Source: a virus
Direction: 5' to 3' (one strand)
Virus record (IMG/VR): IMGVR_UViG_3300008116_000011
Span: 32,001-96,000 of that record
Length of the DNA: 64,000 nt
Part shown: positions 5,730 through 48,229 of the stretch, piece after piece
Position numbering within the stretch: the stretch's first letter is position 1
Layout of the letters: each line of letters opens with the position of its first letter
Position numbers and translations under genes: made by a program
Notes under the pieces: model-generated
Told to the model about the DNA's origin: nothing
Databases searched by the model: none
Seen by the model: the letters and a program-made list of their open reading frames with translations, nothing else

Positions 5730-5925
5730 ATGCGCGCCTGGGGTAAAGATTGTAGTTTATCTGTAGATACGGGGCAGCTATGCGCGCCGGCGGCGGCGCG
5801 TCGATGGACCGCTATTGCTGTGGGGTCGTTTCGCTAGCGTCTCGCCAGCGCCGCGCTAGTGATCATCTTTTTTTTGACAGGGCGAGGATCGGATAAAAAT
5901 GCCTGCTTTTTTATGGCAGGCGATT
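5730..5925. other. GC-rich non-coding element with several inverted repeats
   Basis: CGCGCCG-GCGG-CGGCGCG, TCGCTAGCG...CGCTAGTGA followed by a T-run, GCCTGC...GCAGGC; no ORF. Confidence 0.6.
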
Positions 5926-25281: not shown

Positions 25282-25306
25282 ATATTTTTTAATAAATATC
25301 TTTAGC

Positions 25307-25460
25307 TGTCAGGGAAGGATTCGAACCTTCACGCAGCGATTCAATAAGCAACAAATTAAGCCGGCTTTGTGGTCAACCCCTATTACTTATCTATTTCGAT
25401 ATCTGCGCCCACGAGACGAGTGGGTGTGTCTGCCGTGTAGCTACCCTTTCACCACCTGAC
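25307..25460 (-). ncRNA. Giant tRNA-like RNA (154 nt)
   Basis: 6 bp acceptor GTCAGG/CCTGAC + A; T arm GAAGG-TTCGAAT-CCTTC; anticodon arm CCCAC-TCGTCTC-GTGGG; enlarged D loop; ~75 nt variable arm closed by CGCAG/CTGCG. Confidence 0.8.
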
Positions 25461-25680: not shown

Positions 25681-25713
25681 AAAAAAATAGGGTAACCAAA
25701 AATGGTTACCCTA
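25681..25713 (-). terminator. Intrinsic terminator overlapping the next promoter
   Basis: TAGGGTAACC-ATTTTT-GGTTACCCTA-TTTTTTT; its loop and 3' arm supply TTTGG of promoter 25669-25700. Confidence 0.75.
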
Positions 25714-25719
25714 AAAAAT

Positions 25720-26056
25720 TGATGGGAATAACGATTACCCACAATCCCTGGACGGACCCCTTTTCACCTATAGTCCACAAAGATGATCAGTCTAAGTGTT
25801 AAGACTAGCTGGATTGTCTACCAGCAACGCCTGCGGAGATCGTCTTGATTTATCTTCGGCGTATCCAGAGCACTGTTGGGTTGCGCATTCTACCCTTAGT
25901 GATGGTGGTTTTAACTCATCCGTCTGTGATACCCAACTCAACGGTTTTTCAACCGTCTCGCCAGTGCCTTAGTCCCTCTCAAGAACTTATTCAGCCACAG
26001 TTTGTAAATGACTTAGCCTGGGACAGTGAACCAGGAGAACTGTGCTAAGTACTTGT
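25720..26056 (-). ncRNA. Large ornate structured RNA of unknown class (~335 nt)
   Basis: GC-richer ORF-free unit between ATATTTAT (26061-26068) and a terminator; at least 10 helices and a 5' pseudoknot by eye. Confidence 0.75.
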
Positions 26057-26153
26057 GTATATAAATATATCAAAGATCTAGAAAACCGCTAATTTATTTA
26101 TTTTTTTTTAATATTTATACTCGATCTATTATTATTAACTAAAACAATTTATT

Positions 26154-26321
26154 ATGAAAGATCAATTATTAGGACTTATCAGACATGCTTTAACCTTTGT
26201 TGGTGGTATTGTTGTTACTAAAGGTTTAATTGATGAAAGTTTGTCTCAAGAAGTAATCGGTGGTATTATGACGTTGGTTGGTGCTGTTTGGTCCATCGTT
26301 TCTAAAAAGAAAGTTGCTTAA
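26154..26321 (+). CDS. 55 aa two-helix membrane protein, putative holin (missing from ORF track)
   Basis: MKDQLLGLIRHALTFVGGIVVTKGLIDESLSQEVIGGIMTLVGAVWSIVSKKKVA*; ATATTTAT at 26111-26118. Confidence 0.7.
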   Translation: MKDQLLGLIRHALTFVGGIVVTKGLIDESLSQEVIGGIMTLVGAVWSIVSKKKVA

Positions 26322-26374: not shown

Positions 26375-26376
26375 TG

Positions 26377-26463
26377 TGCCTCCAGCGGGAATCGAACCCG
26401 CACGAACTTTTTCGGTTCACAGGATTTTAAGTCCTGCGTGTCTACCAATTCCACCACAAAGGC
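26377..26463 (-). tRNA. tRNA-Leu(UAA)
   Basis: GCCTTTG...CAGGA-CTTAAAA-TCCTG, long variable arm, GGTTCGATTCC; CCA not encoded. Confidence 0.95.
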
Positions 26464-26473
26464 AAATATTGTG

Positions 26474-26547
26474 AGCCACCTGTAGGAATCGAACCCACAA
26501 CCCTCTGAGTACAAATCAGATGCTCTACCAAATTGAGCTAAGGTGGC
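26474..26547 (-). tRNA. tRNA-Thr(UGU)
   Basis: GCCACCT/AGGTGGC acceptor; TCTGA-TTTGTAC-TCAGA anticodon arm; CCA not encoded. Confidence 0.92.
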
Positions 26548-27302: not shown

Positions 27303-27339
27303 TTTGTTTTTTGTTTTTTAATTAATAAATATAAATCAG

Positions 27340-27726
27340 TGGAGATAGTGGGATTCGAACCCACGTCTCCGAAAGAGACAATAATACTAACGTCTCACAT
27401 GCTTAGTACTGCTTGCGCTGCACCGTAAGGGCTGACCTGGTTAGGGTCAAATTCCACCACTTGATTTTATGACTATCAAGAAAACTAACTCACAGTCCTT
27501 ATTTAACGAGTCGATCGTGAATACTCGGTGGTATTCTGTTCCTAGGTTACTCACACCCGATGCGGACTAAGCAAATGTTGCTTCGTCGGCGCCTACGAAC
27601 GCCATAAGGTCGTCGAAGGTCATGGTTGACATTTCGTCATTTATTGTTTAGTATCTTCTAAGGCAGTATACTCAAATGCCTGCATGTAGTATTACCTCTG
27701 CATCCGGATCAATACCGGTTATCCCC
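27340..27726 (-). ncRNA. ssrA: tmRNA
   Basis: GGGGATA/TATCTCC+A acceptor with G3:U; T arm GTGGG-TTCGAAT-CCCAC; tag frame 27638-27567 after ATAAAT encodes DEMSTMTFDDLMAFVGADEATFA*. Confidence 0.92.
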
Positions 27727-39912: not shown

Positions 39913-40168
39913 ATTATAAATTTACGAACAGTAAATTAGAGTCCCAAAAACTTCTTAACTTTATCTAAAAACGATACTTTTGATTCTGATTTGTTATCAT
40001 CGTGGTAAGCTACATATGGTGTTGCTTCCGGAGCGAGGATCGGAGCTTCTTCTAATTTTACTTTTTTAACAATTTTTTTCTTTGGAGCAGCTGTTTTTTT
40101 CTTTGAAGCTGGAGCTTTTTTTAGTTGTTTCTTTTCCATTTGGTTTATGTTTTGTATATAAATATATG

Positions 40169-43127: not shown

Positions 43128-43157
43128 AAACTATATATTTTATATAAATATATACAG

Positions 43158-47695: not shown

Positions 47696-48229
47696 AAGTT
47701 TAATGCTTGTTTAAAATTTTCAAGTGTTTGTTTATGTTCGTTTACGTACTCTCTAAAAGTGTAAGTACCTTTTTTATTTACCATACAATTACGAACTAAT
47801 GTATGTAATACGTTTTCAAGTGAATTATAATAACCAACTGCAGTCATATTATCATTATACCCGGGTTCCATTAGAGTATAACATGATTTGTCTTCATGTA
47901 TTTCATAAGGGGCAAAGATAGGGTCTTTAATAATAACAATGTCTTTAGTTTGGCCTTTTTGGCGTCCGCGACGCCCCTTAAATGGATCACTCATAACTTT
48001 TATTTTTGTTTATATATAAATGTATGTTATTCAATTGTGTTCTCCACATTTTCTTCGATAATCTCAACATCCATTATTTGTTCACAGAAGAATACTTTAC
48101 CATCCTTTTTAAATGTTTTATGTGATGGTGATAAAGCGTTCCAATCCGGCCCTAAAGGCTCATACTTTTCATCTAATATTGTTTTTACGATGAATAATTC
48201 ATCATTTACTCGTATCATTCCTTTACTAA

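What the first reader, a model, noticed from the sequence alone, without database searches (positions are those of the whole stretch)
25720..26056. Unrecognised ~335 nt ornate RNA with a 5' pseudoknot and its own promoter and terminator
Seen on the minus strand: ACTTAG(C) at 26044-26050 pairs with 26011-26017 and encloses a CCTGG/CCAGG hairpin. CACAGTT (26038-26044) pairs downstream with 25996-26002, which makes a pseudoknot. Next come an AGTTCT/GGGACT hairpin and a GCACTG/CAGTGC domain holding ACGGTT-GAAA-AACCGT and GTTGGGT/ACCCAAC. A CTGGA/TCCAG multiloop holds ACGCC/GGCGT, GCTGG/CCAGC, AGTCT/AGACT and GGAC/GTCC, and a TGGG/CCCA hairpin ends the RNA. It lacks RNase P, tmRNA, SRP and group I/II intron signatures. 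Established: large ornate RNAs such as GOLLD and ROOL occur beside phage tRNAs, but they are longer. Inference: a new large phage ncRNA class, possibly a ribozyme or scaffold, probably late-expressed. This is the best candidate for an undescribed system in the window.
Basis: partly seen in the sequence, partly recalled or inferred. Interest (0 to 1): 0.85.

Follow-up and report, generated by a model that had tools for sequence, protein, structure and literature searches.

The report
Enlarged two-core manA-like phage RNA
The flagged stretch encodes a real, conserved folded RNA of about 285 bases in an uncultured 174-kb phage; it is an enlarged, uncatalogued relative of the known manA RNA, which a 2026 preprint reports to build RNA-only cages, and not a wholly new class.

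Summary
Window 25720-26003 (minus strand) is a GC-rich, ORF-free island. It has a promoter-like box upstream and an intrinsic terminator downstream.

I collected 45 distinct homologues (55-88% identical) from viral and metagenome contigs. A 14-helix model is 95% paired, against 84.5% in shuffles and 31-46% when partners are slid. 44 of its 74 pairs show changes on both sides.

Five others are no better than shuffles, and competing covarying helices replace them. The 5' "pseudoknot" lies outside the conserved RNA.

The RNA is not a new class:
- Rfam's manA model (RF01745) is the only non-tRNA hit, at 19.8 bits here and 19-33 bits in relatives, against a gathering score of 55.2.
- My own model hits bona fide manA RNAs in return.
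- manA's pseudoknot corresponds to a helix that clamps the two ends, and a second, degenerate manA core is nested inside.

The gene stands alone. It lies beside tmRNA or tRNA genes (29 of 45 have a tmRNA within 1.6 kb upstream), and what lies downstream varies.

Two hairpin loops carry self-complementary hexamers that change while staying palindromic. This suggests that copies pair with each other (inferred, not shown).

Earlier agents of this scan reported similar enlarged manA-like RNAs on other DNA.

The parts
26057..26070 (-). Promoter-like box ATATATTTATATAC
   Evidence: A related box lies upstream of 24 of 45 homologues, ending 7-17 nt from the RNA in most and 29 nt at most. It gives 17 matches in the window against 5.9 expected. 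Other copies lie 10-25 nt upstream of an ATG on the same strand. Promoter function is inferred.
26011..26050 (-). 5' tRNA-like minihelix: ACUUAG/CUAAGU stem stacked on a CCUGG-UUCACUGUC-CCAGG hairpin
   Evidence: Read from the sequence. It is present, with identical sequence, only in ours, L085, L090 and L117. In L085 it lies between the tmRNA 3' end and the RNA. It is not part of the conserved RNA. A role as a processing signal or tRNA remnant is inferred.
25716..26003 (-). Conserved RNA with its end clamp (about 285 nt)
   Evidence: Model R1 scores 347.8 bits on 25700-26016. The core is 275-282 nt long in 43 measured homologues.
25998..26003 (-). Clamp, 5' strand (AAACUG); corresponds to the 5' pseudoknot strand of manA
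   Evidence: It pairs with 25716-25721. Five of the six pairs change on both sides, and 80% of cells are paired. The L069-type sequences have a perfect 9-bp clamp. Rfam aligns it to manA's pseudoknot brackets in L105. In ours it is weak: 5 of 6 pairs form, with one C-A mismatch.
25716..25721 (-). Clamp, 3' strand (CAAUUU)
25965..25998 (-). Core 1 junction: GUGGCUGAAUAA, P2 hairpin (25971-25987), CUAAGGCA
   Evidence: Matches the manA consensus at high posterior probability. P2 has four pairs that change on both sides and is 100% paired.
25933..25964 (-). P3a/P3 bent hairpin capped by an invariant GAAA tetraloop
   Evidence: 12 pairs, 7 with changes on both sides. It aligns to the GNRA-type hairpin of manA in L105.
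25918..25924 (-). Long-range helix, 5' strand (GACGGAU)
   Evidence: It pairs with 25751-25757. 98% of cells are paired, and three pairs change on both sides in 14-15 sequences each.
25751..25757 (-). Long-range helix, 3' strand (GUCCGUC)
25865..25905 (-). P5 hairpin; its loop carries the palindrome UGCGCA (25882-25887)
   Evidence: The helices covary. The loop variants UGCGCA, UGGCCA, UGUACA and UGGUCA are all self-complementary.
25827..25862 (-). P6 hairpin (ACGCC/GGCGU) with the invariant GAUCUC at 25836-25841
   Evidence: 100% paired, with three pairs that change on both sides.
25808..25825 (-). P7: GGUA...AAUCC hairpin of the inner core
   Evidence: 100% paired, with three pairs that change on both sides. 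It matches the GGUA/AAUCC hairpin of manA.
25771..25807 (-). P8 (UAGUC/GACUA) enclosing P9; the P9 loop carries the palindrome UGAUCA (25784-25789)
   Evidence: P8 is 100% paired, with 17-19 sequences changed on both sides at two of its pairs. The loop variants UGAUCA, UAGCUA and UCAUGA are all palindromes.
25757..25768 (-). Core 2 junction, degenerate: GGUGAAAAGGGG
   Evidence: It aligns with a literal GUG(G/A)CUGAAUAAU in the distant homologues L070, L071 and L078. Rfam manA hits this second core on its own in L073.
25722..25742 (-). P10: GGUA...AUUCC hairpin of the outer core
   Evidence: 100% paired. Rfam aligns the equivalent hairpin of L105 to manA's GGUA/AAUCC hairpin, just before the pseudoknot strand.
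25681..25713 (-). Intrinsic terminator: 11-bp stem followed by a U run
   Evidence: Homologues carry terminator hairpins of different sequence at the same place. By a crude check for a T run, 33 of 45 have one.

Best explanation
The stretch encodes a free-standing, highly structured non-coding RNA of about 285 nt. It is an enlarged relative of the manA RNA (RF01745).

Shown by covariation:
- The 5' end (AAACUG, directly before GUGGCUGAAUAA) pairs with the 3' tail that follows the last GGUA-type hairpin. This is manA's pseudoknot, here acting as a clamp on the two ends.
- The outer manA-like core encloses an insertion of about 180 nt.
- The insertion holds a second, degenerate and circularly permuted manA core: the P7 GGUA hairpin, P8, and GGUGAAAAGGGG. 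A long-range helix joins it to the rest.

Inferred:
- In this phage the RNA is transcribed from its own promoter-like box, with a tRNA-like minihelix at the 5' end, and stops at an intrinsic terminator.
- In relatives the RNA lies 8-13 nt from flanking tRNA or tmRNA genes, so tRNA-processing enzymes would release it there.
- Two hairpin loops carry self-complementary hexamers (UGCGCA and UGAUCA) that stay palindromic when they change. The RNA probably binds copies of itself through loop-loop kissing, forming dimers or larger assemblies. This would resemble the kissing-loop oligomers and cages reported for manA in vitro. I put this step at about 45%.

Its role in infection is unknown. The tight linkage to tmRNA and tRNA genes points to RNA processing or translation.
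For: A real RNA:
- GC-rich island without an ORF.
- 45 distinct homologues.
- The model is 95.2% paired against 84.5% in shuffles and 31-46% when slid. 44 of 74 pairs change on both sides. The covariation score is 0.384 against 0.185, reached by 0 of 500 shuffles.
- Length is held at 275-282 nt.

Related to manA:
- manA is the best Rfam hit here: 19.8 bits, E = 0.0045.
- It scores 19-33 bits in 13 of 16 relatives' loci, often across the full length.
- In L105 the manA pseudoknot brackets map onto the clamp, and the GGUA hairpin maps onto P10.
- My model R1 hits threshold-passing manA RNAs: L038 26.5 bits, L028 22.4, L027 18.7. About 40 loci that carry the same search motif by chance give nothing.

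Second core:
- Distant homologues score 91-114 bits with R1 and carry a literal second GUGRCUGAAUAA where ours has GGUGAAAAGGGG.

Stand-alone gene:
- 11 of 45 lie 8-10 nt after a tRNA or tmRNA, and 7 lie 10-13 nt before a tRNA. The others have the box and a terminator, and the downstream gene varies.
- 29 of 45 have a tmRNA within 1.6 kb upstream.

Self-pairing loops:
- Four self-complementary variants occur in loop A and three in loop B. The exceptions are the loop B of L121 and of L070/L075 and, in part, the loop A of L070.
- manA oligomers held together by kissing loops and a GNRA-receptor contact are reported in bioRxiv 10.64898/2026.07.01.735769.
Against:
- The fold is no more stable than shuffled sequence (z = -0.43). 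The covariation model (-66 to -75 kcal/mol) lies above the minimum free energy (-89).
- The clamp is weak and AU-rich in this copy.
- The manA score is far below Rfam's threshold.
- The loci used for the reciprocal test were chosen with a manA-like motif, so those E-values are optimistic.
- Oligomerisation rests only on the palindromic loops and on analogy with an in-vitro preprint. L070/L075 and L121 lack the loop B palindrome.
- Sequences in the alignment are related, so shuffle controls overstate significance.
Confidence: 0.72

Rival explanations
1. It is a manA-like RNA that works as a single molecule in the tmRNA/tRNA pathway. It might, for example, bind or divert a host RNase, SmpB, the ribosome or a phage protein. 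On this reading the palindromic loops serve protein binding or tertiary folding, not RNA-RNA assembly.
For: 29 of 45 copies lie downstream of a tmRNA gene on the same strand, 19 of them within 110 nt. The others lie inside tRNA arrays. Ours carries a tRNA-like minihelix. L134 duplicates tmRNA and RNA together as one module.
Against: Linkage may only reflect shared transcription and processing. Loops that change while staying self-complementary are the expected signature of RNA-RNA pairing between identical molecules, not of protein binding. This phage has no SmpB, RtcB or Ro60 match among the genes I checked.
Confidence: 0.2
2. It is a cis-acting leader (riboswitch or attenuator) that controls the downstream 66-aa ORF and 329-aa gene through the terminator at 25688-25713. 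This is the role first proposed for manA.
For: The order is promoter box, RNA, terminator, then an ORF starting about 25 nt later. manA was classed as a candidate riboswitch (PMC2864571).
Against: What lies downstream is not conserved: tRNA-Thr, tRNA-Gly, tRNA-Met or unrelated sequence. Some copies lie between two tRNAs with no terminator at all. The related phage L002/L003 keeps the 329-aa gene without the RNA. I saw no segment that could compete with the terminator stem. The two ends are clamped, as in a finished RNA.
Confidence: 0.05
3. It is a wholly new RNA class, and its likeness to manA is convergent or due to chance.
For: The Rfam score is well below the gathering score (19.8 against 55.2). 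The RNA is about 90 nt longer than manA and has a different central domain.
Against: The likeness is reciprocal, recurs across 13 relatives and spans the full architecture: pseudoknot, junction, P2, GNRA hairpin and GGUA hairpin. Scores grade continuously from 79 down to 19 bits among motif-bearing RNAs.
Confidence: 0.03

Closest known systems
manA RNA motif (Rfam RF01745; Weinberg et al. 2010, PMC2864571; cryo-EM assemblies in bioRxiv 10.64898/2026.07.01.735769)
   Same: It shares these features:
- the junction GUG(a/G)CUGAAUAA - hairpin - UAAGG, closed by two or three pairs;
- a GNRA-capped hairpin after the junction;
- a GGUA...AAUCC hairpin followed directly by a strand that pairs with the bases just before GUG;
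- occurrence in phages.
In the viral contigs I fetched, threshold-passing manA RNAs also lie directly beside tRNA-type genes (L028, L027).
   Different: It differs as follows:
- It scores 19.8 bits, against a gathering score of 55.2.
- It is about 285 nt long, against under 200 nt.
- It carries an insertion of about 180 nt with a second, permuted and degenerate core.
- It has two palindromic loops. The manA pentamers described in the preprint use kissing between different loops (L5-L7', L8-L9', L3-L8').
- It has its own promoter-like box and terminator, and is not in a 5' UTR.
- Most members lack the 5' P1 hairpin.
Enlarged or double-core manA-like phage RNAs noted earlier in this scan (e1-5689198, e1-5689210, e1-5362657, e1-5406227, e1-5689984 and others)
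   Same: They show the same general picture: 277-430-nt RNAs beside tmRNA or tRNA genes of uncultured phages, with sub-threshold manA hits, clamped ends and self-complementary loops. Two of them share 11 of 114 short words with this stretch and are probably the same family.
   Different: They lie on other DNA. Those notes are unchecked AI notes. One reports joined ends (a possible circle) and a Ro60 neighbour. This phage has no Ro60 or RtcB match, and I could not test for joined ends.
Large ornate phage-associated RNAs (GOLLD, ROOL)
   Same: From my own knowledge, they are big structured RNAs often found near phage tRNA genes and reported to form multimers.
   Different: No Rfam match to either appears even at E up to 10. 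This RNA is much shorter, and I saw no motifs shared with them.

Membership tests
manA RNA (RF01745) | Covariance-model score at or above Rfam's gathering score (55.2 bits) | tested here: not met
   19.8 bits in the window and 19-33 bits in 13 relatives. Positive controls found in the same scans score 79, 77.9 and 67.9 bits.
manA RNA (RF01745) | Conserved junction GUGaCUGAAUAA - P2 hairpin - UAAgG with short closing pairs | tested here: met
   GUGGCUGAAUAA lies at 25987-25998, P2 at 25971-25987 and CUAAGG follows. It aligns at high posterior probability. P2 and the closing pairs are 100% paired with covariation.
manA RNA (RF01745) | GGUA...AAUCC hairpin followed by a strand that pairs with the bases just 5' of GUG (pseudoknot) | tested here: met
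   P10 with the clamp (25998-26003 with 25716-25721) fills this role. Five of the six clamp pairs change on both sides. The mapping is explicit in L105. The clamp is weak in this particular copy.
manA RNA (RF01745) | Compact size (under 200 nt) with a single multi-stem centre | tested here: not met
   The core is 275-282 nt with an insertion of about 180 nt that holds a second core.
manA RNA (RF01745) | Position in the 5' UTR of a protein gene (the original cis-regulatory annotation) | tested here: not met
   It has its own terminator or flanking tRNAs, and the downstream gene is not conserved.
manA RNA (RF01745) | Homo-oligomer formation through loop-loop contacts (2026 preprint) | not testable with these tools
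   Only indirect evidence exists: two loops keep self-complementary hexamers through changes, and the GAAA tetraloop is invariant.
tRNA (RF00005), for the 5' minihelix at 26011-26050 | Cloverleaf recognised by ARAGORN or the Rfam tRNA model | tested here: not met
   Neither calls it. Only an acceptor-like 6-bp stem and a T-arm-like hairpin with a 9-nt loop are visible.

The most novel reading that the evidence does not exclude
Large freshwater phages encode, next to their tmRNA, a two-core manA-type RNA. During infection it would assemble with itself through two palindromic kissing loops and a GNRA contact into a defined multi-subunit RNA particle (ring or cage). That particle would act in the cell, for example by sequestering or scaffolding components of RNA processing or translation. 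This would extend the in-vitro manA cages to a larger natural family with a biological setting.
Probability: 0.25. Interest if true: 0.85.

Novelty: new variant of a known kind. Interest (0 to 1): 0.6.

Why it matters
manA was filed in 2010 as a possible riboswitch. In 2026 it was reported to form RNA-only cages in vitro, but its biology is unknown.

This family gives that question a concrete natural context:
- It is a gene of its own, tied to phage tmRNA and tRNA genes.
- It has clamped ends, a nested second core, and loop palindromes that covary as expected for self-pairing.
- The ordinary manA RNAs found here also lie among tRNA genes, which argues against the riboswitch reading for the whole superfamily.

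The family is absent from Rfam at threshold, so phage annotation misses it. The alignment and model made here (A2, R1) could seed a new family or a manA clan.

Tried and rejected
- blastn of the RNA against 50,697 phage records found no match.
- The closest phage found by synteny (L002/L003, 62% identity in the 329-aa protein) has no copy of the RNA.
- The first pattern scan, with the exact loop GGTAGACAATCC, found nothing.
- nhmmer of the single sequence against the first 65 loci found nothing useful.
- A de novo scan for helices that tolerated G-U pairs was too noisy to use.
- RNase P, tmRNA, SRP, group I/II introns, GOLLD, ROOL, 6S and Y RNA: no credible Rfam match. The Y RNA hit scores 13.9 bits at E = 4.8, which is noise.
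- A protein-coding reading is rejected. The only ORFs are 49-67 aa, single-base indels occur among homologues, and substitutions are compensatory.
- The family pattern found nothing in 185,579 prokaryote species genomes. By this strict pattern the family is seen only in viral and metagenome contigs.
- This phage has no RtcB or Ro60 match.
- Pfam finds nothing for the small ORFs between the tmRNA and the RNA.

Full report
**What is there**

The window is bases 32001-96000 of a 174,437-bp IMG/VR phage record with direct terminal repeats. The record encodes a family-B-type DNA polymerase, GroEL and many glycosyltransferases.

On the minus strand the order of features is:
- tmRNA at 27339-27726, then two small ORFs;
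- tRNA-Thr and tRNA-Leu at 26376-26547;
- a plus-strand holin gene of the Pam3 gp28 family at 26154-26321;
- the flagged stretch;
- a 66-aa ORF, a GC-rich tRNA-like element, and a 329-aa ORF.

The stretch 25725-26024 has 47% GC, against about 25-33% around it. The tRNA and tmRNA genes show the same contrast. The longest ORF in the stretch is 67 aa. An 11-bp terminator hairpin with a U run lies at 25688-25713. The predicted folding energy is not unusual (z = -0.43), so thermodynamics alone proves nothing.

**Homologues**

blastn against deposited phages found nothing. The nearest phage by synteny lacks the RNA.

The only Rfam signal was a sub-threshold manA hit: RF01745, 19.8 bits against a gathering score of 55.2. 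It shared UGGCUGAAUAA...CUAAGG and a GGUA...AAUCC hairpin with the model. I used these motifs for pattern scans:
- One search returned ordinary manA RNAs, scoring 79, 77.9 and 67.9 bits. They lie directly beside tRNA-type genes. It also returned a graded series of weaker relatives.
- One search found the first true homologues, including the 3' part.
- Searches (viral contigs; metagenome contigs) used blocks specific to this family. They raised the set to 45 distinct sequences, 55-88% identical to ours.

The same pattern finds nothing in 185,579 prokaryote species genomes. This phage holds a single copy.

**Structure**

On alignment A2 my model has 74 pairs in 14 helices:

| Measure | Model | Control |
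|---|---|---|
| Cells paired | 95.2% | 84.5% in shuffles; 31-46% with partners slid |
| Pairs with changes on both sides | 44 of 74 | 32.8 in shuffles |
| Covariation score | 0.384 | 0.185 (reached by 0 of 500 shuffles) |

The main helices, in window coordinates:
- clamp, 25998-26003 with 25716-25721;
- P2, 25971-25987;
- P3a/P3 with an invariant GAAA loop, 25933-25964;
- long-range helix, 25918-25924 with 25751-25757, where three pairs change on both sides in 14-15 sequences each;
- P5, 25865-25905;
- P6, 25827-25862;
- P7, 25808-25825;
- P8/P9, 25771-25807;
- P10, 25722-25742.

Five others do not (GCACTG/CAGTGC, GTTGGGT/ACCCAAC, CTGGA/TCCAG, AGTCT/AGACT, GGAC/GTCC). They score no better than shuffles and break exactly where the columns vary. 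For example, L134 keeps P5 through a complete exchange of the stem (CGUUC/GAACG), which destroys GCACTG/CAGTGC.

The sequences are related to one another, so the shuffle control overstates significance. The slid controls, and the direct competition between the two models, are the stronger argument.

**Relation to manA**

- Rfam's manA model is the only non-tRNA, non-tmRNA hit that recurs at this RNA. It appears in 13 of 16 relatives' loci at 19-33 bits, often spanning the whole 300 nt.
- In L105 the alignment maps manA's 5' pseudoknot strand, junction, P2 and GNRA hairpin onto the 5' part. About 180 nt are treated as an insertion. manA's GGUA/AAUCC hairpin and 3' pseudoknot strand map onto P10 and the 3' tail. 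manA's pseudoknot is therefore this RNA's end clamp.
- In the other direction, model R1, built from A2, hits threshold-passing manA RNAs over exactly their Rfam coordinates: L038 26.5 bits, L028 22.4, L027 18.7. About 40 loci that carry the search motif by chance give no hit. This limits the selection bias but does not remove it.
- R1 also finds distant full-length relatives that were not used to build it (L070, L071, L075, L076, L078; 91-114 bits). Three of these lineages (L070/L075, L071 and L078) carry a literal second GUG(G/A)CUGAAUAAU and a GGUAGUCAGGAAUCC hairpin where ours has GGUGAAAAGGGG and GGGUAAUCGUUAUUCCC.

The insertion thus holds a second core in permuted order: the GGUA hairpin P7, then the strand UAGUC, which pairs across P9 with GACUA just before the second junction. 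The RNA fails manA's score threshold, size and genomic position. It meets the tests for junction, hairpin and pseudoknot. I therefore file it as a new variant of a known kind, not as a member of RF01745.

**Gene organisation**

- The core length is held at 275-282 nt.
- Eleven of the 45 copies begin 8-10 nt after a tRNA or tmRNA 3' end, and seven end 10-13 nt before a tRNA. The spacers are just the clamp strands. Ordinary tRNA processing would therefore release the RNA (inference).
- Twenty-four copies instead have a TATATTTATATA-type box, ending 7-17 nt upstream in most (29 nt at most). By a crude check for a T run, 33 have a terminator.
- The box is over-represented in the window and precedes other genes, so it is probably a phage promoter (inference).
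- Twenty-nine of the 45 have a tmRNA upstream on the same strand within 1.6 kb, 19 of them within 110 nt. In ours the distance is 1.3 kb.
- What lies downstream is not conserved, which argues against a cis-regulatory role.

**The 5' element**

In ours, L085, L090 and L117, a 40-nt element lies between the box (or the tmRNA) and the RNA. It has a 6-bp stem (ACUUAG/CUAAGU) stacked on a hairpin CCUGG-UUCACUGUC-CCAGG. This resembles the acceptor and T arms of a tRNA. MAFFT aligns it with the real tRNA that occupies this place in L069.

It may be a remnant of a tRNA, or a handle for RNase P or RNase Z. This is speculation, at about 40%.

**Likely mechanism**

Two hairpin loops carry self-complementary hexamers:

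| Loop | Variants (number of sequences in A2) | In distant relatives | Exceptions |
|---|---|---|---|
| Loop A, on P5 | UGCGCA (38), UGGCCA (4), UGGUCA (2, through G-U pairs), UGUACA (1) | UGGCCA, UGGUCA | L070 in part (CGUACA: inner GUAC only) |
| Loop B, on P9 | UGAUCA (36), UAGCUA (8) | UGAUCA, UCAUGA | L121 and L070/L075 |

A six-base palindrome cannot pair within its own loop. The natural reading is symmetric loop-loop kissing between copies.

With the invariant GAAA tetraloop, this parallels the contacts reported to hold manA pentamers, decamers and a 60-mer cage together in vitro. Those contacts are kissing loops and a GNRA loop-receptor contact (bioRxiv 10.64898/2026.07.01.735769).

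That this RNA oligomerises is inferred, not shown; I put it at about 45%. Its role in infection is unknown. The tmRNA and tRNA linkage suggests RNA processing or translation. This phage has no RtcB or Ro60 match.

**Earlier notes of this scan**

Twelve earlier findings of this scan, in at least nine genomes, describe enlarged manA-like RNAs in phage tRNA or tmRNA loci. Two of them share words with this stretch and are probably the same family.

They gave me the manA lead, the preprint, and the wording "double core" and "clamp". I re-derived each of those points here from my own searches. Their reports of transcription and of joined ends could not be tested.

**Verdict**

The stretch is a real RNA. 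It is a new variant of a known kind. It is of moderate to high interest because it gives the cage-forming manA fold a natural, testable setting.

Noticed in passing
window 25296-25460 (-): A GC-rich tRNA-like element of about 165 nt lies between the 66-aa and 329-aa ORFs. A 7-bp acceptor-like stem (GUCAGGG.../CCCUGAC) and a perfect T arm (GAAGG-UUCGAAU-CCUUC) enclose about 110 nt of extra sequence. ARAGORN and the Rfam tRNA model do not call it. The related phage has a different sequence with the same plan at the same place, L003:5855-5985.
   Followed up: partly
window 26057-26070, 40154-40167, 43140-43153, 48012-48025 (all -): The box ATA(T/C)ATTTATATA recurs: 17 matches with up to 2 mismatches, against 5.9 expected. 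Several copies lie 10-25 nt upstream of an ATG with no obvious Shine-Dalgarno sequence. It is probably a phage promoter motif.
   Followed up: partly
L028:1980-2289; L027:3940-4328: Threshold-passing manA RNAs (67.9 and 79 bits) in viral contigs lie directly next to tRNA genes or a tmRNA-like piece, not in front of protein genes. This fits poorly with manA's annotation as a cis-regulatory element.
   Followed up: partly
L134:353-670 and L134:4329-4646: One 6.8-kb metagenome contig carries two nearly identical copies of the RNA, each about 96 nt after a tmRNA gene. This looks like a tandem duplication of a tmRNA-plus-RNA module.
   Followed up: no
window 27339-27726 (-): The phage tmRNA has an unusually long predicted tag, DEMSTMTFDDLMAFVGADEATFA. 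Relatives carry similar tags ending in YAVAA or YALAA. No SmpB-like Pfam match appears among the neighbouring small ORFs.
   Followed up: no
window about 5730-5800 (+): A strongly GC-rich stretch with repeated GCGCGCC follows a promoter-like box in this AT-rich genome. I did not examine it.
   Followed up: no
window 25836-25841 and 25976-25981 (-): The invariant GAUCUC in the P6 internal loop could pair with the invariant GAGAG of the P2 loop (UCUC with GAGA). Neither segment varies, so the pairing cannot be tested by covariation.
   Followed up: no
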